A stretch of 14,413 nucleotides of DNA, from the IMG/VR virus record IMGVR_UViG_2654587996_000008. One strand, 5' to 3'. The stretch's first letter is position 1. Every line of letters begins with the position of its first letter. The stretch is from a virus. Taxonomy: Duplodnaviria > Heunggongvirae > Uroviricota > Caudoviricetes. Shown here piece by piece: positions 1 to 13,198 of this stretch. The notes beneath the pieces are model-generated. The model saw nothing but the letters and a program-made list of their open reading frames with translations, was not told the origin of the DNA and searched no databases. A program made the translations under genes and the position numbers.

Positions 1-267
1 TCAGAACTTTTTTCGAATGACATCCTGGAGCATTTCCTTGTCCAGACTGAGGTCTGCCACCAGACGACGGAGCCGCTGATTTTCATCCTCCAGTTGCCGC
101 AGACGGCGCAATTCTGTCACGCCCATCCCGCCAAACTTTTTCTTCCAGTTGTAAAAAGTGGCTTCAGAAATGCCCATCTTTCTGCACACTTCCTCCCCCC
201 GGGTGCCGATTTCAGCCTGTTTCAGCGCAAAAGCGATCTGTTCTTCGGTATAGCGGGTCTTTTTCAT
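1..267 (-). CDS. IS3-family transposase OrfA (HTH ORF, IS407-group-like)
   Basis: 88-aa ORF with stop at 1-3. Translation 'MKKTRYTEEQIAFALKQAEIG...ATFYNWKKKFGG...LRRLRQLEDENQRLRRL' has the HTH plus leucine-zipper pattern of IS3-family OrfA. An A6G slippery heptamer sits at its 3' end; orfB would lie beyond the left edge. Confidence 0.8.
   Translation of the reverse strand: MKKTRYTEEQIAFALKQAEIGTRGEEVCRKMGISEATFYNWKKKFGGMGVTELRRLRQLEDENQRLRRLVADLSLDKEMLQDVIRKKF
7..13 (-). other. Programmed -1 ribosomal frameshift heptamer A-AAA-AAG (IS3-family OrfAB fusion signal)
   Basis: The minus strand reads 'CGAAAAAAGTTCTGA' at nt 15..1, i.e. AAAAAAG immediately before the orfA stop. Confidence 0.6.
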
Positions 268-658: not shown

Positions 659-1126
659 TTATTTTACGATTCTGAAAGAAGGAATCTCAAGAAGAGGCAG
701 AAGCAGTGGTTTAATGCCCACGCGAGTAGATAACCCATAAACCTGCTCACGAACATATGGGTATATAATCAATGGAGCGTTAAAATCAGCCCAATGAGGG
801 ATATGCTTAACAGAGAATTCTTCAGTATCTACTGTAAAAACTCCTCCGACTTCAACCCATATAGAGACAGGTTGGTTCTCATACTCTTGGTTGTCAGCTT
901 CAGAATTATCCTCATCTACAGCAAATCTGCCAGCACGAACCCTCATACTTACATGTATAGTAGATGTTGCTTCATCAAAATCTGAATGGCCTGCTTCCAT
1001 AGCGTAGCTACCAGCTTGGTAGTCAGCCGAATGTGCAGTCTTAACGTCATGCACTTCAATACTCAGCTTCAAAACTTGCAACGAACGGAGTTGCACAGCA
1101 TGTGCTCGAAATGACTTATTTGACAT
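659..1126 (-). CDS. SecB-like chaperone
   Basis: 155 aa. C-terminal 'NAPLIIYPYVREQVYGLSTRVGIKPLLLPLL' matches the SecB signature segment (E. coli SecB '...[30 protein letters not shown]...'). Start overlaps the upstream stop as TAATG (translational coupling). Confidence 0.6.
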   Translation of the reverse strand: MSNKSFRAHAVQLRSLQVLKLSIEVHDVKTAHSADYQAGSYAMEAGHSDFDEATSTIHVSMRVRAGRFAVDEDNSEADNQEYENQPVSIWVEVGGVFTVDTEEFSVKHIPHWADFNAPLIIYPYVREQVYGLSTRVGIKPLLLPLLEIPSFRIVK

Positions 1127-1434
1127 TAGGCCGCCAGTGCAAATTCAGGTTCTGCTTCAACAGCTAAGACCGTGTCAGCGTTCAAGGATTTAGCAGCATT
1201 TAGCTTCACAGTAGCAAACAAAGTTACCAGTTCCTCTGTCATGACTTCTGAAAAGTGCAAAGACAAAGACTCCAGAGTATTTACATCAAAATCTTTGAAT
1301 TTTTCGCTTTTTTTCAGAAAAGAGGAAACATCCCCTTCTCTACATTCCCTGGCTTCTTTAAGGAACTCTTCAGGTGTTAAAGACAAGATGTCTTGTAACG
1401 CCGCGTCCAATGCAGCCTTCATTCTACGGTTCAT
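1126..1434 (-). CDS. Small acidic helical protein; putative antitoxin/adaptor of the operon
   Basis: 102 aa with SD 'GAGGGG' 8 nt upstream of the ATG. Starts 12 nt after the upstream gene and overlaps the downstream start. No recognisable DNA-binding motif; the C-terminal tail '...TVLAVEAEPEFALAA' is acidic/hydrophobic. Confidence 0.5.
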   Translation of the reverse strand: MNRRMKAALDAALQDILSLTPEEFLKEARECREGDVSSFLKKSEKFKDFDVNTLESLSLHFSEVMTEELVTLFATVKLNAAKSLNADTVLAVEAEPEFALAA

Positions 1435-1446
1435 AGTGGAACCCCT

Positions 1447-2052
1447 CTAATTTTTAGTTATAGCAAGATAATCCAGATTTCTAACTATCACAGCAAACGG
1501 CGCTCCAACATACCCAGCCAGTTGGTCTGGCATTTTATGTGGTTGCTGGACGGTGGCTAACACTACGCCAACTGATATGCATTTGGATTCTTCAGTTCGA
1601 TTGATGAGCATTTGATGCACTGCACAGATAAGGTCTTCTCTCTCATCAACATTCTGGGCATTTATAGTTGGCCAAAGACCATCAAGCGCTTTTCTTAAAG
1701 TTACTCTAAACTCGGGACTCTCAAGGTTTAAAACCTCTTCACCAGGTGCCTTGACGTACCCCCAAATTACAGCGCAACCTTTGTCAGCTTCGTCTGAATA
1801 TTCACCTCTTTTTTCAGCAGCAACAAACCAACTTTCTGCAAGTTGAGTTGCATATTGGCATCCTTTTTCAGCAGCATGCCAAAGATAAGCTCCCACACCA
1901 CGCCTACCACCGTCTCCAACTCTGAAACCATTCTCCAGAATTGATGCAGCCCTTGAGCAGCAAGTTCCATGGGAGCCATGTGCTTCGAAGAAGGTAGCTT
2001 CAACTGATTCATCATTAGCGGCTTGATCGGAAACTAAACTTAACATATTCAT
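1447..2052 (-). CDS. Putative ADP-ribosyltransferase-fold protein (PARP/diphtheria-toxin-like H-G-S/T motif)
   Basis: 201 aa. 'FFEAHGSHGTCCSRAASILENGFRVGDGGRRGVGAYLWHAAEKGCQYA' resembles the NAD-binding core of H-Y-E clade ARTs (PARP1 '[37 protein letters not shown]', diphtheria toxin 'YHGT'). Candidate catalytic acidic residues lie further downstream. The functional call is inference. Confidence 0.45.
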   Translation of the reverse strand: MNMLSLVSDQAANDESVEATFFEAHGSHGTCCSRAASILENGFRVGDGGRRGVGAYLWHAAEKGCQYATQLAESWFVAAEKRGEYSDEADKGCAVIWGYVKAPGEEVLNLESPEFRVTLRKALDGLWPTINAQNVDEREDLICAVHQMLINRTEESKCISVGVVLATVQQPHKMPDQLAGYVGAPFAVIVRNLDYLAITKN

Positions 2053-2609: not shown

Positions 2610-3137
2610 TCATTGATGGTCTGATTTTTCCCACTCAGCCAGGGCGTTTAACCCGGCTTCACTCCATGATTCCGGTTCATCGGGATAATCACCTGCAACA
2701 TAGCAGAGTTCGCAACGCAGCATACGAATTGCCAGCCTGGCATTACCTCGCAAATTGTATTTTTCAAAGTAATGCTGCCCTTCATCATCCTCAAGGCAGA
2801 TAGCACCATCATCAAGAAAGTGCACTTCCCAGCCTAATTCCCCGGCTGCATACAGCACACGCTGCTGTATGCCCTCGTCCGTTACTGGCGCAGGAATTTT
2901 ACCGTCTCTGGCCTTAACTGCTTTCCAGAACTCGCCCCATGTCATTTCCAGCGTTCTTTCTGGCCACATTTCAGAAATGGTGTCTTTCCCCTGTGCTGGT
3001 GGGCTGTTCCGCTGCTCTGTCGCTTCCACATCAATTTTTTTACCGGACATGACCACTTCGCCTTTCTCGAGCCAGTCGTAAACTGTCTGGCGGCTTACGC
3101 CTTTGTATTTGGCGTATTCGGCTTTACTCATCAACAT
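2610..3137 (-). CDS. Nu1-like winged-HTH DNA-binding protein (possible terminase-small-subunit-like / packaging-redirection protein)
   Basis: About 175 aa from the ATG at 3137 (SD 'GAGGTG' 7 nt upstream; the ORF track's earlier ATG at 3155 lacks an SD). N-terminus 'MSKAEYAKYKGVSRQTVYDWLEKGEVV' resembles lambda Nu1 'KKQLADIFGASIRTIQNWQEQGMPV'. The repeat array lies immediately 3'. Confidence 0.5.
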   Translation of the reverse strand: MLMSKAEYAKYKGVSRQTVYDWLEKGEVVMSGKKIDVEATEQRNSPPAQGKDTISEMWPERTLEMTWGEFWKAVKARDGKIPAPVTDEGIQQRVLYAAGELGWEVHFLDDGAICLEDDEGQHYFEKYNLRGNARLAIRMLRCELCYVAGDYPDEPESWSEAGLNALAEWEKSDHQ

Positions 3138-3236
3138 GTAGCTCACCTCATGCATATACGATAAAAAATAATTTCATGCGGAAAGGGAATGCGTTGTGGG
3201 TATGGAGGAAAGGGGCAATAACCGCCCCTTACTGAT

Positions 3237-3951: not shown

Positions 3952-4275
3952 TTATTTCATCAGATTTTTCATTATTTGCGCGATTGAATACACAAGCAAA
4001 AACTCGGCAGCCGCAAGAGTATAAAAAACATAAATTCGCTTAGCCCACCGACGATGAAAGAACTCCTCAGCATGGCCGGATGTTCGAGATACAAGCCATG
4101 CACCTACTGCACACAGAGCAGGTGCAATGAGCACAGTTATAAACCAGATTGTGATGCCCATCCCATGCCTACTGATAATAGCCATTGGTATTGCAAAAAT
4201 GAATGTTAGAGCAGCATTAGCTAATAGAATATCTTTTAAAGTATTTTCAATTAGTTTTTCTAGATTATCTTTCAT
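3952..4275 (-). CDS. Small integral membrane protein (107 aa, 2-3 predicted TM helices)
   Basis: Hydrophobic stretches 'LLANAALTFIFAIPMAIISRHGMGITIWFITVLIAPALCAVGAWLV' and 'IYVFYTLAAAEFLLVYSIAQIM'. ATG at 4275 is preceded by a G-rich SD. Confidence 0.55.
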   Translation of the reverse strand: MKDNLEKLIENTLKDILLANAALTFIFAIPMAIISRHGMGITIWFITVLIAPALCAVGAWLVSRTSGHAEEFFHRRWAKRIYVFYTLAAAEFLLVYSIAQIMKNLMK

Positions 4276-4298: not shown

Positions 4299-4326
4299 AT
4301 ATATAAAAGCCCCTTACTAAGGGGCT
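4299..4326 (-). terminator. Intrinsic terminator after the lipoprotein gene
   Basis: 8-bp stem (4308-4315 'AGCCCCTT' pairing 4319-4326 'AAGGGGCT') with a 3-nt loop, followed on the minus strand by 'TTTATATATT'. It sits between the lipoprotein stop (4340) and the membrane-protein start (4275). Confidence 0.5.
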
Positions 4327-4339
4327 TTGCACGGATTGT

Positions 4340-5482
4340 TTAAAGGGAACTTTTTTTCGCCCCTTCAATTTCTGCCTGACAAATTTCGTCATTTGTAAAT
4401 GAGTACTGCAGATAGACATATCCCTGAGTGGAATTGTTCGCTCTGGCCTCAATAGATATAGTATCAATATTGTTTTTTAATGGTATTTCTTTTGTTCCCT
4501 TCCATGTGGCAGATAAGAAGCGTTCTTTTTTGTTTAGCCCCCTCATCCAGTCCTGAGGATCTTTCCAAATTGAACCAGCCAGCAAAAAGTCTGTAGTATC
4601 AGCCTTTCCATACAGAGAACTTAAAGAATTACTCAATTCTTCAAACTTGGATTTAAGAGCCAATCCATAGCTATCAGTATCAATATTTTTTCCTAAAGCC
4701 CGTATTTGACATAAACCAGCTTTCGGGGAGATCAACAAACCATACATTTCAAAATCTGCGTTTTGCTTCGGTAATTTATCAGAAGTATACAGATTCACAC
4801 TGTCTGGTAGTGGCTTGAGCTTAGCACCGATCATATCTTCGATGTTTTTCTGTGTAAGACCGGCTTCTAAGCCAAACGGACCATCCGCTGGCGGGAGTAA
4901 AGGAAGTTGCTCTTGGGAATTTTTGGCTGTTACTTCCGTTTCAGTACTGTTTTTTGCGTCATTATCTTGTACTGATGCCAGCTTAACTTCAGCGAGGCCA
5001 TACTTGGCTGTGAGGTACTTTTGCTGCAACATTGCCATGGTCTGCTCTTCAGTGGCAACAGTAGATAATTTTAGTACCTTTATCAGACCACCACTATACT
5101 GACGAGCATCAGCTTTGGCTTCGTTGATTTTTGCATCTAAGCTGTCAATTTCAGTTTTAATTGAAGCCGCAAGCTCAGGATCAGGTTTTACTCCAGATAC
5201 AACAACATCAATTTTGGCGCCTGATTCAATAGCATTAATACGCTGTTCCAAAAGCGCTTTATTAGTTCCTAATATTTCCAGTCTTGCTGTTGTCAGATTT
5301 TTTATCAACCCACCAGAAAACTGCTGGTCAACTTCCTTAGCTGCTGATATTTCACCTTCCGTTTGCGATAGTTCAGCTTTAAGAGCCGCTACTTCCTGTT
5401 TCTGTTCTGGAGTTAACTCTTCTGGCCCACATCCGGTTAACATTACTATACCGACTAATGTTGCAATTAAAGTTTTATTCAT
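4340..5482 (-). CDS. Lipoprotein (380 aa) with internal repeats
   Basis: Signal peptide and lipobox 'MNKTLIATLVGIVMLTGC'. Repeated 'Q[FY]SGGLIK' motif and coiled-coil-like central region. Function unknown. Confidence 0.65.
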   Translation of the reverse strand: MNKTLIATLVGIVMLTGCGPEELTPEQKQEVAALKAELSQTEGEISAAKEVDQQFSGGLIKNLTTARLEILGTNKALLEQRINAIESGAKIDVVVSGVKPDPELAASIKTEIDSLDAKINEAKADARQYSGGLIKVLKLSTVATEEQTMAMLQQKYLTAKYGLAEVKLASVQDNDAKNSTETEVTAKNSQEQLPLLPPADGPFGLEAGLTQKNIEDMIGAKLKPLPDSVNLYTSDKLPKQNADFEMYGLLISPKAGLCQIRALGKNIDTDSYGLALKSKFEELSNSLSSLYGKADTTDFLLAGSIWKDPQDWMRGLNKKERFLSATWKGTKEIPLKNNIDTISIEARANNSTQGYVYLQYSFTNDEICQAEIEGAKKSSL

Positions 5483-5616: not shown

Positions 5617-5904
5617 TTACTGACTACAATTGTTCTTTTTTTGGTATTTCCTGAATGCCTCACCATTGGGCTGATGTAATCCCATCCCGACATGTGCCCG
5701 GCAGATGGTTTTGCGCATCTCCCCGAAATTATCCTGCCTTGCTGGTGGGCGTGCTGCCTTGTGGATACATTCCGCGCGACGTTTTGCCGCCTGTTCCCGT
5801 GCCTTGTCATCATTCGCCAGCATGATGACCTCAGCCCACCGCGCCGCCGCTCTGCGGTACAGGCCACGCGCTTCCAGTGCTTCCGCTTTACTGTCCTGAA
5901 TCAT
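5617..5904 (-). CDS. PerC-family transcriptional regulator (Pch-like)
   Basis: 95 aa. 'KAEALEARGLYRRAAARWAEV' matches the conserved PerC/Pch N-terminal motif as I recall it. SD 'AGGAGG' upstream; ATGA overlap with the upstream stop. Confidence 0.65.
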   Translation of the reverse strand: MIQDSKAEALEARGLYRRAAARWAEVIMLANDDKAREQAAKRRAECIHKAARPPARQDNFGEMRKTICRAHVGMGLHQPNGEAFRKYQKKNNCSQ

Positions 5905-6479
5905 GCACCTGTTACCTCCTTTGCTGCCCGGCGCTGACGTTTGCGCTTCTCATTCAGCGCCACCAGCCGCGTTTCTGCCTCCTGCTGTTCCTGTGGTGTC
6001 ACTTCCCCACATGGCTGGCCTTTCAGGTCGTAGCGTACCCCACCAGCCATTAAGGCGCGGTAATAGCGCGGACACTGCGCATAAGATGCCAGCGTCGCAC
6101 GTAATGCCCCTGGCCCGAATGCCAGCCCCCTGACGGCGAGGTTCTGCATCAGGTCGTCGAATATCCCCACCTTAAGCGGCTTCGGTGCTTCCCGGCTGAA
6201 TAAGTCAGGCCACAACTCAGTAAGGCGGTTAACGCGCCTGCGGTTTTTTCGCTGCCGTTTGGTCATATGCCGCCACGGTGTCGCCCCTGTGGGCTTTTGC
6301 TGCGCTTTCTGGTTACCGGGCATCACTTTATGTGCCGATGTGGTTTTATCCTGCTCCTGCGTCGCCTGCGTCGTTTTCTGCGGCGTGCCGTAAATGCCTT
6401 TCGGTTTTCTGTTAATGGTCAGCTTAGTCATGCTTTGCCCCATCGTTTTTACTGGTTGTTTCATATCCGGTACTTTCAT
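5901..6479 (-). CDS. ProQ/FinO-domain RNA-binding protein
   Basis: 192 aa. 'KPLKVGIFDDL...LRATLASYAQCPRYYRALMAGGVRYDLKGQPCGEVT' parallels E. coli ProQ 'RPLKIGIFQDL...[36 protein letters not shown]', preceded by a basic Lys/Arg/Gln-rich N-terminus. The exact start is uncertain among several in-frame ATGs. Confidence 0.65.
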   Translation of the reverse strand: MKVPDMKQPVKTMGQSMTKLTINRKPKGIYGTPQKTTQATQEQDKTTSAHKVMPGNQKAQQKPTGATPWRHMTKRQRKNRRRVNRLTELWPDLFSREAPKPLKVGIFDDLMQNLAVRGLAFGPGALRATLASYAQCPRYYRALMAGGVRYDLKGQPCGEVTPQEQQEAETRLVALNEKRKRQRRAAKEVTGA

Positions 6480-6484
6480 CTTCT

Positions 6485-6770
6485 GGGTAGAGGGGTAGAC
6501 GGCGGGTAGATAACAAAAAATAGTCCTCTACCCACTTAACATAATGAAAAAAAACAACTTTCACACATTAGGTAGAGGGGTAGACCGTAAAATAGAAAAG
6601 TTTGAAACTTACTTTCTTACAATCTGTGTTTTCCTCTCGCTGTGTAAAAAGTTTTTTGAGCGGGGATGTTGTCTACCCCTCTACCCATTTCTCTGAAAGC
6701 CTTGTGCCACAAGAGATTCAGCGGGTAGACAATAAAAAATCACCATCTACCCTGTGTCTACCCATCTACC
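6485..6770. repeat. Iteron-type replication origin (multiple GGGTAGA / TCTACCC heptamers flanking AT-rich spacers)
   Basis: Direct copies at 6485-6500 ('GGGTAGAGGGGTAGAC'), 6504-6510, 6571-6586 and 6723-6730; inverted copies at 6527-6533, 6671-6687, 6746-6752, 6756-6763 and 6765-6770. AT-rich stretches at about 6535-6570 and 6587-6660. Immediately 3' of the primase gene. Confidence 0.65.
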
Positions 6771-6787
6771 TGTTACGGGTATTACTC

Positions 6788-8536
6788 TTATAAAAATTCC
6801 TCGGTTCTCTCCGTTTGTATAACGTTGGTTTGTATTCGTCCTTTAAAACCTCTTGTCAGGTATTCAGCCCCATATTCTCTTGCTGCTGACTTCATGGCCT
6901 TACCAAAATCACCGACACTTAATATTTCTTCTTCCCCCATATACTCCATAAAGGCGAGATATAGTCTGTACAGGCTTGTACGCGGATTAAGATCAGTTAA
7001 TCTCTTACCGCCTCCCATCATCATCCCATGCGGTTCATCAAGAAATGCAAGCGCCGCACATAACCCAATGACAGGATCAGTTTCCTGTTTTATTTTCAGA
7101 GCTTCGGCACCGTCGCGCTGCTCCAACAATAATTCCCGTGCTTTTTCTGGATCGGAAAAGTTAGCCAGTAATCGACGAATAATGACAGGTATTTCCGCCG
7201 CTATCTTTTGCGGTAACTCTTTATCCTTTTCGGTCTCCCTTACAATATTATCGAACCGAAAAATTACACGTCGACGCGCAACGCCTCCGGCCCGTTCGGT
7301 GAATGTCATCGGCACGTTATTTGTTGCCAGCACGACGGACCTGATAATTGTTGTGAAACGCTTTTCATATTTCGGGTTAATTTCAACTGGATCTCCACCC
7401 GTTATTTTTTTGATGCCGGATCCTTCACCTGTATATTTCGGCTGGTCTGCCAGGACAATAAGACGACTTCCGACAACCTGCGCACGCCCGCCAGCATCAT
7501 CAAGTGATGTCATTTCAGCGCTTACCGTGTTCTGTTTCCCTGCCAGAAGGGTGGCTATGTGCGTGATTGTGCTCTTGCCGCTCCCACCTTCCCCTGTGGC
7601 CTCAATAAACATCTGCCAGTCGTACCGGTTCGCCATAATCATGTACAGCGCGGCGCATATACGCATCATCTTTCGCGGGTCTTTTCCTGCGGCGTGATCA
7701 AGCCATTTATGAAAGTTTGGCGCGTTGTCGCGGATGTTCTCCCCTGGTACTGGTGGCGTGTACTCAATGCCGTTATGCGTGGTGATCCAGTTATCCGGCG
7801 AGTGCGGGGAAAATTCGCCAGTTTTCATGTCAAGCACGCCATTAGAGAACGGCAATAAATCACCTGACGGCTCCCCCATTGGCCTGGCCATAACTTTTAA
7901 AGCATCCACTGTATTACTTATTGCTCTCCGACTAAATGATGTTCCGTTTTCTTCGTAAATAGCCACCATTTCACGACTAAGATCCAGTGTGCTTACCGGA
8001 ACCCAAAAATCATCGCGCCAGACGTGAACAACCTCACTCTCCTGATTCATTGCTACATCCTGAAATCGTTCAGCTAAAAGTTTTGCCCTTTGGCTGTCCG
8101 CCATTCTGGAAAGAGATATTTTGTGTTTTTTCTCGGTCCTTCCTGACAGAATTTCTCCGCGCTCAGCCTGTCCGCGGATCCGTTGCAAGTAGTCGCGCCA
8201 GTTCTCCGGCTCCCGGTCGGTGATACCTTTGTATAATTTCGCCTCCTGTACGCCAGCCAGCGCCAGCTTTTCAGCGATAGCATTGATCTGGATTGGTTCG
8301 ATCTCTCCCGCGAGATAGACACGCGCAAAGCGGCGTTTCTCGTCAATAATGCGGATATTCGCCAGGTCTGCCAGTTGCTTTGGCCCCAGGTAAACAGGTG
8401 GTACGTTATCGCCGTGTTTTCGTCCTTCGCTTTCAATCCAGTGTTGAGCATGGGAGTAAGCGTCCGCCCCGGCAAAAATGATTACCTCTGTGAATTTATC
8501 CTTCGGCTGATATTTTAAATTCGGTGCGTTTTTCAC
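6788..8536 (-). CDS. P4-family primase/helicase (D5-like, Walker A P-loop)
   Basis: 582 aa with Walker A 'GEGGSGKST' and a phage/plasmid primase C-terminal-type region. GTG start at 8536 with SD 'GGAGG' 7 nt upstream; GTGA overlap with the upstream ORF. Confidence 0.85.
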   Translation of the reverse strand: MKNAPNLKYQPKDKFTEVIIFAGADAYSHAQHWIESEGRKHGDNVPPVYLGPKQLADLANIRIIDEKRRFARVYLAGEIEPIQINAIAEKLALAGVQEAKLYKGITDREPENWRDYLQRIRGQAERGEILSGRTEKKHKISLSRMADSQRAKLLAERFQDVAMNQESEVVHVWRDDFWVPVSTLDLSREMVAIYEENGTSFSRRAISNTVDALKVMARPMGEPSGDLLPFSNGVLDMKTGEFSPHSPDNWITTHNGIEYTPPVPGENIRDNAPNFHKWLDHAAGKDPRKMMRICAALYMIMANRYDWQMFIEATGEGGSGKSTITHIATLLAGKQNTVSAEMTSLDDAGGRAQVVGSRLIVLADQPKYTGEGSGIKKITGGDPVEINPKYEKRFTTIIRSVVLATNNVPMTFTERAGGVARRRVIFRFDNIVRETEKDKELPQKIAAEIPVIIRRLLANFSDPEKARELLLEQRDGAEALKIKQETDPVIGLCAALAFLDEPHGMMMGGGKRLTDLNPRTSLYRLYLAFMEYMGEEEILSVGDFGKAMKSAAREYGAEYLTRGFKGRIQTNVIQTERTEEFL

Positions 8537-8823
8537 TTCTTACCTCCCGCAACCAACATTGCCCGGATTTTTTTAATATTCTTGGCTGCACGTCTCGCCA
8601 CCGCCTGTTGTTTGTTTTCAACCAGAATAAAATCACGCTCAAACTGACGACGCGGCATTACGCAGTCATATTCGTAAGCCTCACGGCGGTAGGTGATATT
8701 GCCTGGCGTAACGTGACGAATAACCACTCGTCCCCCACGTCTGGTGTCGCGGTAAATATCTCCGTGTCTGATTTCAGGCCGAGAGAGACCGCTGGCAGTA
8801 AAGCCAGAATTTTTCTTTTTCAT
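8533..8823 (-). CDS. Hypothetical small basic protein (96 aa)
   Basis: SD 'AGGAAA' upstream of the ATG at 8823; coupled to the primase start. Confidence 0.5.
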   Translation of the reverse strand: MKKKNSGFTASGLSRPEIRHGDIYRDTRRGGRVVIRHVTPGNITYRREAYEYDCVMPRRQFERDFILVENKQQAVARRAAKNIKKIRAMLVAGGKK

Positions 8824-9612: not shown

Positions 9613-9829
9613 GGTGCACCTCCTGCACATCAGCCATGATAATTTTTCCGGCCTTATCCAGTGCCTGATCGGCTTTTAGCTGCACAAATGCTAAATAATG
9701 GGAGATGCATTCTGATTCTCTGACTGCGTGTTTATGCGCCACACCAGCGATAGCTGAAATCTCAATAAGTGAATCCATCAGCGTTTTGATAGCGTCTACC
9801 GCTGCATCAGGCCATGTTGCATTACACAT
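9605..9829 (-). CDS. Hypothetical protein (74 aa)
   Basis: SD 'AGGAGG' upstream of the ATG at 9829; ATGTGTAA overlap with the upstream ORF. Confidence 0.45.
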   Translation of the reverse strand: MCNATWPDAAVDAIKTLMDSLIEISAIAGVAHKHAVRESECISHYLAFVQLKADQALDKAGKIIMADVQEVHHA

Positions 9830-10025
9830 GCTCCACCTCCTGGCGAATACGGGCAGCGAATACCATCACGCAGCCATCAGGGGATTGCTGGCGTGCTTCC
9901 TGTTCGCTGGTGGCCTCGATGTGAATTACGCGCGGTTGTGCTGTGCTCAGGGCGATAAAACGCCAGATGTATTTATTCAGGTTGTGCGAGTCCCGCCCTT
10001 GCGGGTGTGTGGTATGATTTCTCAT
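9822..10025 (-). CDS. Hypothetical protein (67 aa), first gene of the replication operon
   Basis: Internal ATG of the long stop-free frame, at 10025, with SD 'GAGGT' 5 nt upstream. Translation 'MRNHTTHPQGRDSHNLNKYIWRF...'. Confidence 0.45.
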   Translation of the reverse strand: MRNHTTHPQGRDSHNLNKYIWRFIALSTAQPRVIHIEATSEQEARQQSPDGCVMVFAARIRQEVEHV

Positions 10026-10122
10026 AGCTACCTCGATACTGTTGCTATCGTTGGTGGTTAGAAGCCCGGTTAGTGTTAGCGCACTGCCGGGTTTCGTCGT
10101 TTCTGCACCTTGCATCAACAAG

Positions 10123-10174
10123 GTGTTGAACACCAATTTAAACCTAGGTGTTAAACACGTCAAGTGTTGAACAC
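10123..10174. promoter_or_regulatory. Three 11-bp palindromic operator-like sites GTGTT(G/A)AACAC in a divergent control region
   Basis: Sites at 10123-10133, 10148-10158 and 10164-10174. The third overlaps a plus-strand -35-like 'TTGAAC' (10167-10172), with -10-like 'CATACT' (10190-10195) upstream of the RHH gene. Confidence 0.55.
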
Positions 10175-10224
10175 TTGTTTTTTTTCCTGCATACTGCATT
10201 TGTTTTTTGTGAGGGGGACACAAC

Positions 10225-10404
10225 ATGGCGACAAAAGCAGTAAACGCAAAATCACAAACAGTTGCGGCAAGGGTTCCGCATGAAGTTATGAACAATGTTG
10301 AGGCGGTAAAAATGCCTGGTGAAAGTACAGGGCAGTTTGTAACAGCAGCATTAAAGCGAGAAGTTGAGTACCGCCAGCGGCGCAAGGCCAAAGAACAGGA
10401 GTAA
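10225..10404 (+). CDS. Small ribbon-helix-helix-like regulator (59 aa), not in the ORF track
   Basis: ATG at 10225 with strong SD 'GAGGGGG'. Translation 'MATKAVNAKSQTVAARVPHEVMNNVEAVKMPGESTGQFVTAALKREVEYRQRRKAKEQE' fits a beta-strand plus two helices. The only clearly plus-strand gene, divergent from the replication operon. Confidence 0.5.
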   Translation: MATKAVNAKSQTVAARVPHEVMNNVEAVKMPGESTGQFVTAALKREVEYRQRRKAKEQE

Positions 10405-10661
10405 CCATCACCAGCGCCGTGGTGTGAGGAACGACGGTGCATCGTTTTACAGGGCAGCGCCATGACCAACAAAGAATCAACCAATACACCATCACCGGCC
10501 CGGAAAAGACAGCGCAGAAAGATAGCGTACGAGTATGAGTCAGACAGATTCGCGCCCTGTGCGTTTATCCTTGAGAATTTCCTTAAAGAGTACAGGCGCA
10601 CAAAAATGGGGTCGCATACCTGGAAAACATCGCGACATGGCAATGTTAAAGAGCCGGAATA

Positions 10662-11084
10662 GCCCACCAGCAAGCCAGCACACTGATCACATTGCCCACC
10701 AGCCGCAAATCTGGCATTGTTGGCGATGTGTTCAAGTGTGTAGCTTTCCCACTGGTGGCCCTCTGCGGTCGCCTTTGTTTTATCCAGAACGAAATCAGAC
10801 ATCAGATTAATCAGCACCTGGCGACCTGACAAAAACGCATCAGTCGCGCCACCAGCAAAATTTTTTGCTTTCCGGACAGCGTGACCAACGACATTTTGCA
10901 GCAAAATATTCTGCATTTCTGGCGTGCTGTAGTAACGGTGATCAGCGCCTTCACTCTGTGCGACCACAACGCTATAATCTGCCTCGTAGACAGTAAGCAA
11001 TATGGCGCAGTAGGCTATTCGTTCACAAAGGCGCTCCGGCAACGGGGCGCTTTCTCTTTTTGTAACGGTCAGAGCGTTACACAT
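10662..11084 (-). CDS. Hypothetical protein, 5' portion only; 3' end undefined (possible disrupted gene)
   Basis: ATG at 11084 overlaps the antirepressor stop (ATGTGTAA). The first ~140 residues look protein-like, but the frame then runs stop-free through regulatory DNA to 9822, so the true end cannot be set. The end coordinate is arbitrary. Confidence 0.25.
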
Positions 11085-13070: not shown

Positions 13071-13198
13071 TCTGTGCTACCTCGCACCCTCTGTAAAAGT
13101 GGCTGTGCCAGCCCGCAGAGGTGTACGGGTTTTCAGGAGCGACCCTAGACACAGCCTTTTCTTAATCGCTCAAAGTCTACTACTGTATACTCAACCAG

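What the first reader, a model, noticed from the sequence alone, without database searches (positions are those of the whole stretch)
5617..6479. ProQ/FinO-domain RNA-binding protein coupled to a PerC-family regulator inside the satellite
A FinO-domain protein with ProQ-like conserved blocks and a basic N-terminal tail is followed, with an ATGA overlap, by a PerC-like regulator. PerC/Pch proteins activate virulence regulons (for example LEE via ler) in pathogenic E. coli. A mobile element pairing an RNA chaperone with a virulence-type transcription factor implies island-borne post-transcriptional and transcriptional rewiring of the host.
Basis: partly seen in the sequence, partly recalled or inferred. 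Interest (0 to 1): 0.55.

Follow-up and report, generated by a model that had tools for sequence, protein, structure and literature searches.

The report
FinO-like and PerC-like gene pair
Two small regulator genes, one for an RNA-binding FinO-type protein and one for a PerC-type protein, form a recurring coupled cassette in a common E. coli phage-satellite island, but both genes are already annotated and nothing ties them to virulence control.

Summary
On the minus strand, 6479..5901 encodes a ProQ/FinO-domain protein (Pfam E=1e-23; the modelled fold matches FinO, RocC and NMB1681). The true start is probably M17 at 6431. The next gene, 5904..5617, encodes a full-length PerC-family protein (Pfam E=1e-30). 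The two genes share an ATGA stop/start overlap.

The window is a PICI-type phage satellite with integrase, AlpA, primase, iteron origin and a TerS-like gene. The pair sits directly after the origin.

Close copies of the pair occur in 280 of 5,426 complete E. coli genomes, where RefSeq already names both genes. The pairing is not accidental:
- It recurs beside unrelated primases.
- It persists in Salmonella at 40% FinO identity.
- It occurs in swapped order in some islands.
- The two genes co-occur strongly (29 both, 1 and 7 single, 23 neither).

The pairing is still facultative. Either gene can occur alone, and the slot can hold an SSB gene instead.

The virulence-rewiring reading is not supported. 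The window's PerC is 49% identical to PchE, which is reported not to activate LEE1. It is also 49% identical to EcCIMP1_025, which represses LEE1. The pair also occurs in Salmonella and Citrobacter.

I found no dedicated RNA partner. This is a new member of known kinds, of modest interest.

The parts
5901..6431 (-). Gene for a 176-aa FinO-domain protein (the longest ORF extends to 6479, 192 aa). It has a disordered basic N-terminal tail, a basic helix, a FinO domain and a C-terminal helix.
   Evidence: Pfam PF04352 E=9.8e-24. PDB sequence hits to ProQ 5nb9, FinO 1dvo, NMB1681 and RocC. The top 27 Foldseek PDB hits for the AF2 model are all FinO-domain structures. The start at M17 is supported.
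5928..6242 (-). FinO/ProQ RNA-binding domain (residues 80-184 in 192-aa numbering).
   Evidence: Pfam envelope. Equivalents of ProQ R58, R69, Y70, R80 and D82 are conserved as R127, R138, Y139, R149 and D151. pLDDT is above 90.
6249..6431 (-). Coding region for the basic N-terminal extension (residues 17-77), with net charge about +11.
   Evidence: Composition. AF2 predicts residues 1-49 (176-aa numbering) as disordered and a basic helix at 58-73. The N-terminus MTKLTINRKPKG is conserved.
5617..5904 (-). Gene for a 95-aa PerC-family protein of the short PchE-like type.
   Evidence: Pfam PF06069 E=1.3e-30, full length. It is 49% identical to PchE and to EcCIMP1_025. The N-terminal motif D-x-KAE-x-LE-xx-GLYRRA is invariant.
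5901..5921 (-). Translational-coupling junction: Shine-Dalgarno AAGGAGGT (5921-5914) inside the last FinO codons, and the ATGA stop/start overlap (5904-5901).
   Evidence: Read directly from the sequence. The 4-nt overlap is kept in 28 distinct junction sequences from other islands.
6484..6772 (.). Context: iteron cluster (GGTAGAGGGGTAGAC in both orientations around an AT-rich core). This is the probable island replication origin, lying between the primase gene and the FinO gene.
4306..4328 (-). Context: strong intrinsic terminator (10-bp stem) after the 380-aa lipoprotein gene. It is the likely 3' end of the transcript that carries the FinO and PerC genes.

Best explanation
The two genes are real and translationally coupled. 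They form a recurrent accessory 'regulator cassette' of enterobacterial phage-inducible chromosomal islands (PICIs). The first product is a FinO-architecture RNA chaperone: a basic disordered tail plus basic helix, a FinO domain with an intact RNA-binding face, and no ProQ-type C-terminal domain. It belongs to a chromosomal-island clade distinct from plasmid FinO, FopA and host ProQ. The second product is a short PerC/PchE-type helical protein. The cassette lies directly after the island origin, inside the long leftward operon that carries the replication genes. I found no promoter-like site between the primase gene and the cassette. I therefore infer that it is made mainly when the island is transcribed, by read-through from that operon. 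I also infer that the two proteins are made in fixed proportion through the stop/start overlap. The inferred mode of action has two parts. The FinO-domain protein binds terminator-type 3' hairpins of island, helper-phage or host RNAs, stabilising them or promoting their pairing. The PerC-like protein modulates transcription through protein contacts rather than as a classical DNA-binding factor. Together they tune gene expression of the satellite, helper and host system. They are not a dedicated LEE/virulence switch. Shown here: gene reality, families, fold, conserved residues, coupling, conserved linkage and modular exchange. Inferred: RNA binding, targets, timing of expression and any joint action.
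For: Families and fold. The two genes are under purifying selection.

PICI context: integrase, AlpA and AntA; P4-type primase; iterons; TerS-like gene. The same island at 96.8% identity is integrated at tRNA-Thr next to proA in E. coli N921.

Linkage in the FinO-first sample: of 98 loci with a FinO homologue, 63 have FinO followed by PerC, 4 have PerC followed by FinO, and 31 have no intact PerC. The adjoining primases are only 42-100% identical.

Linkage at depth: a Salmonella island has primase-ProQ-PerC with FinO only 40% identical to the window. A Citrobacter island has FinO at 57% identity with the same ATGA overlap.

Linkage in an independent sample: among 60 non-identical islands chosen by a motif unrelated to these genes, 29 have both, 1 has FinO only, 7 have PerC only and 23 have neither (Fisher p=3e-9, not corrected for phylogeny).

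Module borders: homology blocks begin at the FinO start and end at the PerC stop, so the pair moves as a module.

No sigma-70-like promoter was found between the primase gene and the pair.

Published work on PICI PerC homologues is summarised.
Against: No RNA ligand was identified. There is no dip in synonymous variation inside the genes that would mark an overlapping RNA, and no Rfam family lies near the pair. The one good candidate antisense RNA in the island also occurs in islands without FinO.

The pairing is facultative. cf-PICIs carry FinO-x82-capsid or SSB-PerC-x82-capsid. Other islands carry FinO alone or PerC alone.

The co-occurrence test is inflated by shared ancestry.

The PerC model is only moderately confident (pLDDT 73) and matches no solved fold, so its mode of action is open.

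Expression timing is inferred from gene order only.
Confidence: 0.6

Rival explanations
1. Island-internal life-cycle control. The FinO-domain protein works like FinO/FinP or FopA/Inc on a cis-encoded antisense RNA of the island or its helper, to set replication, derepression or packaging. PerC activates the downstream module. The host is not the target.
For: The pair lies immediately after the origin and primase, in the same slot that other islands fill with an SSB gene. FinO+PerC islands mostly lack SSB (26 of 31), and FinO-less islands mostly have it (31 of 34). Known mobile-element FinO proteins act on their own element's antisense RNA. The island encodes a roughly 78-nt two-hairpin RNA candidate on the + strand (about 10985-11062). 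It has a conserved -10 box, an 11-bp terminator whose base is extended by A-U pairs, and a folding z-score of -2.5. In O-island 51, pchE sits directly upstream of the capsid module.
Against: That RNA motif is equally present in islands lacking FinO. The cassette recombines independently of the replication module and of the downstream cargo. Half of the related islands replicate and persist without it.
Confidence: 0.3
2. The pair rewires host virulence regulons, with PerC activating ler/LEE-type promoters and the FinO protein adding post-transcriptional control.
For: Family membership in PerC. Some Pch proteins and EPEC PerC activate LEE1, and host ProQ affects EHEC virulence genes. O-island 51, a related island, contributes to LEE expression, although through RgdR and not PchE.
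Against: The closest characterised relatives do not activate LEE1 or they repress it (identities). The pair occurs in Salmonella, Citrobacter and many E. coli of varied source. No DNA-binding fold is detected. Nothing in the window links the pair to virulence genes.
Confidence: 0.1
3. The two genes are unrelated cargo that merely hitch-hike side by side in a recombination hot spot, with no functional connection.
For: The slot is highly variable (empty, SSB, PerC, FinO, or FinO+PerC) and mosaic junctions fall at the gene borders. Each gene exists alone elsewhere.
Against: Adjacency is kept down to 40% FinO identity and across genera. The 4-nt overlap is kept in 28 distinct junctions. The order is swapped but adjacency is retained in L093-L096. 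Co-occurrence is strong.
Confidence: 0.1

Closest known systems
FinO of F-like plasmids (PDB 1dvo) and the FinOP system
   Same: It has the same overall architecture and size: a basic N-terminal extension, a FinO domain and a C-terminal helix, about 180 aa. The NCBIfam FinO model aligns over residues 45-187. The fold matches with probability 1.0. It is encoded on a mobile element.
   Different: Identity over the domain is only about 30-36%. It falls below the NCBIfam FinO cutoff (61.9 against 136 bits). It is on a chromosomal satellite rather than a conjugative plasmid. No FinP-like dedicated antisense partner was identified. It is coupled to a PerC gene.
FopA (YafB) of IncI plasmid pCol1B9
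   Same: Both are FinO-domain proteins with a distinctive basic N-terminal region and no ProQ C-terminal domain, and both are encoded on a mobile element.
   Different: No close sequence relationship was seen in the plasmid search; the best plasmid matches are 30-43% identical and are annotated FinO or ProQ/FinO family. FopA's target is the Inc antisense RNA of its own replicon, and no analogous RNA was shown here.
Host ProQ (PDB 5nb9) and RocC (7rgu)
   Same: They share the same RNA-binding domain, with conserved equivalents of ProQ R58, R69, Y70 and R80. The RocC-terminator complex is among the best fold matches.
   Different: It lacks the ProQ linker and C-terminal domain. It is below the ProQ equivalog cutoff (56.6 against 127 bits). 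It is an accessory gene, not a core gene.
PchE of O-island 51 / EcCIEDL933
   Same: It is 49% identical over 87 aa and of similar length. It occupies the same position, after the primase/SSB block of a PICI.
   Different: In O-island 51 the upstream neighbour is an SSB gene, not a FinO gene, and the downstream neighbours are capsid genes. PchE is reported to have no effect on LEE1.
EcCIMP1_025, the PerC-like protein of PICI EcCIMP1
   Same: It is 49% identical. The host island uses the same integration site (tRNA-Thr next to proA) and a near-identical integrase type.
   Different: It stands alone without a FinO gene. It was shown experimentally to repress LEE1-lux, and the function of the window's allele is untested.

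Membership tests
ProQ/FinO family (Pfam PF04352) | Profile match above the curated threshold over the whole domain | tested here: met
   83.9 bits against a cutoff of 27, E=9.8e-24, model positions 5-108 of 109
ProQ/FinO family (Pfam PF04352) | FinO-domain fold | tested here: met
   The AF2 domain has pLDDT above 90. The 27 best Foldseek PDB matches are all FinO-domain structures, and 26 of them have E <= 0.001 (NMB1681, FinO, RocC with and without RNA, Lpp1663); ProQ NTD (5nb9) is the 27th at E=0.04.
ProQ/FinO family (Pfam PF04352) | Conserved RNA-contact residues (ProQ R58, Y70, R80 equivalents; the residue list is from my own knowledge of Pandey et al. 2020, and FopA's paper cites the same Arg/Tyr pair) | tested here: met
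   R127, Y139 and R149 (192-aa numbering) align with ProQ R58, Y70 and R80. R138 and D151 align with R69 and D82. R62 is replaced by A131. Y139 (Y123 in 176-aa numbering) and R149 (R133) are invariant in the 22-sequence alignment A3. In the 17-sequence alignment A1 they are 90% or more conserved.
ProQ/FinO family (Pfam PF04352) | Binding of structured RNA (terminator hairpin with 3' tail) | not testable with these tools
   This needs EMSA, CLIP or RIP.
FinO proper (NCBIfam PRK13754) / ProQ proper (NCBIfam PRK04950) | Score above the curated subfamily or equivalog cutoff; for ProQ, also a C-terminal domain | tested here: not met
   61.9 bits against a cutoff of 136 for FinO, and 56.6 against 127 for ProQ. 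The protein ends about 10 residues after the domain's C-terminal helix.
FinOP-type system (chaperone plus dedicated cis-antisense RNA) | A cognate antisense RNA that co-occurs with the chaperone | tested here: inconclusive
   A candidate antisense RNA lies at about 10985-11062 (+), but it is present in islands with and without FinO. No synonymous-site constraint was seen inside the pair.
PerC family (Pfam PF06069) | Full-length profile match above the curated threshold | tested here: met
   105.9 bits against a cutoff of 22.6, E=1.3e-30, positions 1-89 of 90. The family's invariant N-terminal motif is present.
LEE-activating PerC/PchABC regulators | Activation of the LEE1 (ler) promoter | not testable with these tools
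   The nearest characterised relatives, both at 49% identity, are PchE (reported inactive) and EcCIMP1_025 (a repressor). Porter et al. 2005 could not be read.
LEE-activating PerC/PchABC regulators | Residence in a LEE-positive pathogen or virulence context | tested here: not met
   Homologous pairs occur in Salmonella and Citrobacter and in E. coli from water, poultry, pigs, cattle and humans. The absence of LEE from Salmonella and from Citrobacter portucalensis and braakii rests on my own knowledge.
Phage-inducible chromosomal island (PICI) | Integrase, AlpA regulator, primase/replication gene with adjacent iteron origin, packaging-redirection gene, no virion structural genes, about 10-15 kb, site-specific insertion | tested here: met
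   Integrase and AlpA domains; primase; iterons; TerS-like HTH protein. No capsid or tail families were found among the ORFs scanned. The same island lies at tRNA-Thr/proA in E. coli N921. Induction by a helper phage was not testable.

The most novel reading that the evidence does not exclude
The FinO-domain protein and the PerC-like protein act as one functional unit, possibly a physical complex made in fixed proportion by translational coupling. A phage satellite would deploy this unit on induction as a ProQ-like mimic to capture terminator-bearing host or helper RNAs, while PerC redirects transcription. In many islands the unit takes the place of the SSB gene next to the origin. This would be the first RNA-chaperone-based layer in satellite-helper-host conflict, and it would give PerC-family proteins a partner and a mechanism.
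Probability: 0.15. Interest if true: 0.6.

Novelty: new member of a known kind. Interest (0 to 1): 0.3.

Why it matters
Island-borne FinO-domain genes related to this one are detectable in about a third of complete E. coli genomes (1,767 of 5,426 at DNA level, up to 9 places per genome). That count also includes records matching only the PerC part. None of these island genes appears to have been studied: the held literature only lists them in an Enterobacter survey.

PerC-family proteins have no solved structure and no agreed mechanism. A PerC gene that is habitually coupled to an RNA chaperone gene offers a concrete handle: are the two products partners, and what RNAs does the chaperone hold?

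It matters for satellite biology and for the FinO/ProQ field. It does not, on present evidence, bear on virulence.

Tried and rejected
- **Antisense terminator-like hairpins in the FinO tail region (6223-6398, + strand).** They are weak 5-6 bp stems. Their T-runs are the complement of A-rich codons in the basic tail, and the tail is the least conserved part of the protein. I treated them as compositional.
- **Synonymous-site conservation across 65 FinO and 43 PerC alleles.** There is no clear dip, so no sign of an overlapping RNA or other embedded element.
- **Rfam scan at E<=1.** Nothing lies near the pair. The only hits are the int-alpA RNA at 13087-13155 and a sub-threshold SymR-like match.
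- **The candidate antisense sRNA (about 10985-11062) as a dedicated FinO partner.** Rejected as obligate, because the motif is equally common in islands without FinO.
- **Whether the O-island 51 'ssDNA-binding protein' next to pchE is a FinO protein.** It is a true SSB and is unrelated.
- **Whether x82, the gene after FinO in cf-PICIs, replaces PerC.** It has no Pfam family, and it co-occurs with PerC in other cf-PICIs. It is therefore a separate gene.
- **Fold search with the PerC model.** No match reached E<1; only weak TPR-like helical similarities appeared.
- **PADLOC.** Neither protein matches a known defence family.
- **Scan of genome contigs with the single protein.** It gave only two loci, so diversity had to come from IMG/VR and from exact-protein look-ups.
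- **Porter et al. 2005.** The paper is not held, so statements about PchE inactivity rest on its citation in PMC11773190 and PMC6092414.
- **Fusions.** No FinO-PerC fusion protein was seen among the 240 listed homologues.

Full report
**1. The observation**

The minus strand carries two ORFs at exactly the stated coordinates: 6479..5901 (192 aa) and 5904..5617 (95 aa). The sequence shows that the stop of the first and the start of the second overlap as ATGA at 5904-5901. A strong Shine-Dalgarno, AAGGAGGT at 5921-5914, lies 9 nt before the second ATG.

Pfam assigns the first protein to ProQ/FINO (PF04352, E=9.8e-24, 83.9 bits against a cutoff of 27, residues 80-184). It assigns the second to PerC (PF06069, E=1.3e-30, 105.9 bits against a cutoff of 22.6, nearly the whole model).

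The first protein also matches every solved FinO-domain protein by sequence: ProQ 5nb9 at 5e-12, then FinO 1dvo, NMB1681 and RocC. An AlphaFold model built on 22 homologues has pLDDT above 90 in the domain. Its 27 best PDB fold matches are all FinO-domain structures.

The equivalents of ProQ R58, R69, Y70, R80 and D82 are present. The segment before the domain has 13 K+R against 2 D+E. It is predicted disordered and is followed by a basic helix.

One correction applies. All homologues begin MTKLTINRKPKG, RefSeq annotates 176 aa, and nucleotide similarity to other islands starts abruptly at that point. The start is therefore probably M17 (6431).

Both genes are under purifying selection, with median dN/dS of 0.27 and 0.30.

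**2. The context**

The window is the IMG/VR contig IMGVR_UViG_3300011840_000039. It is a PICI-type phage satellite. Reading leftward on the minus strand it carries:
- a tyrosine integrase, an AlpA regulator and an AntA-family antirepressor;
- a DUF4222 protein and a P4/D5-type primase;
- an iteron cluster at 6484-6772;
- the FinO-PerC pair;
- a 380-aa lipoprotein gene followed by a strong terminator;
- a TerS-like HTH protein;
- a possible PD-T4-9-like defence module.

An island 96.8% identical sits at tRNA-Thr next to proA in E. coli N921. This is the site used by the characterised PICI EcCIMP1.

**3. How common it is, and whether the pairing is real**

Close copies of the 1.1-kb segment occur in 280 of 5,426 complete E. 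coli genomes. In all 25 best records listed, RefSeq annotates them as 'ProQ/FINO family protein | PerC family transcriptional regulator'. At lower stringency, 1,767 genomes match part of it.

I surveyed three sets of loci.

- *Loci found through the FinO protein.* Of 98 loci, 63 have FinO followed directly by PerC, 4 have PerC followed by FinO, and 31 lack an intact PerC. The neighbouring primases in the paired loci range from 42 to 100% identity, so the pair is not simply inherited with one replication module.
- *PerC-first look-ups.* A Salmonella island has primase-ProQ-PerC where FinO is only 40% identical to the window. A Klebsiella island and an EcCIMP1-like E. coli island have PerC alone. 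A Citrobacter island has FinO at 57% identity with the same overlap and the same downstream lipoprotein.
- *Islands chosen by an unrelated early-region motif.* Among 60 non-identical evaluable islands, 29 had both genes, 1 had FinO only, 7 had PerC only and 23 had neither (Fisher p=3e-9, not corrected for shared ancestry).

Twenty-eight distinct junction sequences keep the ATGA overlap.

Sliding-window identity shows that homology blocks start at the FinO start. They end at the PerC stop, within PerC, or at the FinO stop. The pair is therefore a mobile module inside a mosaic hot spot.

The slot is variable. It can hold SSB only, SSB-PerC (as in O-island 51), SSB-FinO-x82-capsid, or FinO-x138 plus a PerC remnant. 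FinO+PerC islands mostly lack SSB, whereas FinO-less islands have it. FinO genes of this clade also occur alone in non-PICI islands.

**4. What it probably does**

The FinO-domain protein has FinO's architecture, not ProQ's. It falls below the curated cutoffs for both and is only 30-43% identical to plasmid family members. It represents a chromosomal-island clade.

From the fold and the conserved residues I infer binding to terminator-type hairpins. The basic extension may add chaperone activity, as it does in FinO; that point rests on my own knowledge of FinO.

The PerC model shows three confident helices (residues 5-51) and no helix-turn-helix. It has no significant structural neighbour. This fits action through protein contacts rather than direct sequence-specific DNA binding.

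Gene order, the lack of a promoter-like site between the primase gene and the pair, and the terminator at 4306-4328 together suggest read-through from the island's leftward operon. The overlap and the embedded Shine-Dalgarno suggest coupled synthesis.

I therefore favour a two-layer accessory regulatory cassette acting on the satellite, helper and host system. The main rival is island-internal control through a cis-antisense RNA.

**5. The search for an RNA partner**

Rfam finds nothing near the pair. Synonymous variation shows no constrained patch.

The island does encode a good small-RNA candidate on the + strand, at about 10985-11062. It has a promoter-like site, an 11-bp GC-rich terminator with a U tail, and a two-hairpin fold with z=-2.5. 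In diverged islands it has a conserved extended -10 and a conserved 3' half. It occurs with and without FinO, so it cannot be a dedicated partner. It remains a testable ligand.

**6. Comparison with the literature**

PerC homologues are already noted as frequent PICI genes (PMC6092414; PMC11773190). According to the latter paper, the PerC-like genes of EcCIEDL933 and EcCICFT073 did not affect LEE1 fusions, and EcCIMP1_025 silences LEE1. The window's protein is 49% identical both to PchE of EcCIEDL933 and to EcCIMP1_025.

A 2026 Enterobacter survey lists a PerC gene and a ProQ/FinO gene in different PICIs without comment on linkage. A review of the FinO/ProQ family notes an 'eclectic' branch of mobile-element and chromosomal homologues, but nothing on satellites.

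I found no paper in the held library on the function of a PICI FinO protein or on FinO-PerC linkage.

**7. Verdict**

Both genes are ordinary members of annotated families in a known kind of element. The modest new point is that they form a conserved, translationally coupled cassette. Interest is 0.3.

Noticed in passing
window 10950-11062 (+): Candidate roughly 78-nt antisense small RNA. It has a promoter-like TTCACT-17-TATAAT, then two hairpins, the second an 11-bp GC-rich terminator with a U tail (fold z=-2.5). In diverged islands the -10 is an extended TGATATAAT at the same spacing and the 3' half is conserved. The exact terminator motif occurs in 99 IMG/VR stretches. It is antisense to the 5' end of an unannotated minus-strand ORF starting at 11084. 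Rfam has no family for it.
   Followed up: partly
window 8533-8823 (-): The DUF4222 protein overlapping the primase start is a homologue of RgdR (ECs1581 of O-island 51 is DUF4222, at the same position). RgdR is a published regulator of LEE and motility. The island therefore carries members of two families described in the literature as LEE regulators, RgdR and PerC.
   Followed up: partly
window 13087-13155 (-): Rfam int-alpA RNA (RF02996), 49.8 bits against a gathering score of 35.8, between the integrase gene and the 251-aa gene upstream of alpA.
   Followed up: no
window 6484-6772: Iteron cluster (GGTAGAGGGGTAGAC and variants in both orientations around an AT-rich core). This is the probable replication origin, lying directly between the primase and FinO genes. 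The first in-frame ATG of the FinO ORF abuts an iteron.
   Followed up: partly
related loci: The slot after the primase is filled by SSB, by FinO+PerC, or less often by both. Of the FinO+PerC islands, 26 of 31 lack SSB. Of the FinO-less islands, 31 of 34 have SSB. In cf-PICIs the position between SSB and gene x82 holds either FinO or PerC.
   Followed up: partly
window 659-2052 (-): Three-gene block at the island's distal end. Its last gene is a SecB-like protein matching PADLOC PD-T4-9_C (E=2e-09). This may be a toxin-antitoxin-chaperone type anti-phage system. Related islands carry GapS1 or GAPS4 genes at the same end.
   Followed up: partly
window 2610-3155 (-): A 181-aa protein with a small-terminase-like N-terminal HTH (phrog_57, E=2e-06). 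It is the likely packaging-redirection gene of the satellite.
   Followed up: no
window 4340-5482 (-) and 3952-4275 (-): A 380-aa predicted lipoprotein with no family assignment and a 107-aa membrane protein follow PerC. They travel with one PerC allele group (95% identity or more), and in Citrobacter they are 93% identical although FinO there is only 57% identical. A strong terminator lies at 4306-4328.
   Followed up: partly
window 9822-11084 (-): A single 420-aa ORF runs from an unannotated 5' part (MCNALTVTKRESAPLPER...) into the Icd-like protein. It overlaps the + strand YlcI/YnfO gene (10225-10404). It probably represents two genes, or a pseudogene, read in one frame.
   Followed up: no
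window 1-267 (-): An IS3-family transposase orfA fragment lies at the left edge, so the contig ends inside an insertion sequence rather than at the island's attachment site.
   Followed up: no
L008-L015 (E. coli; the FinO protein is indexed in 4,005 blocks of the collection): A very common island type has SSB-FinO followed by a 138-aa gene overlapping FinO by 20 nt, then only the C-terminal 49 aa of a PchE-like PerC. This appears to be a disrupted former FinO-PerC pair.
   Followed up: partly
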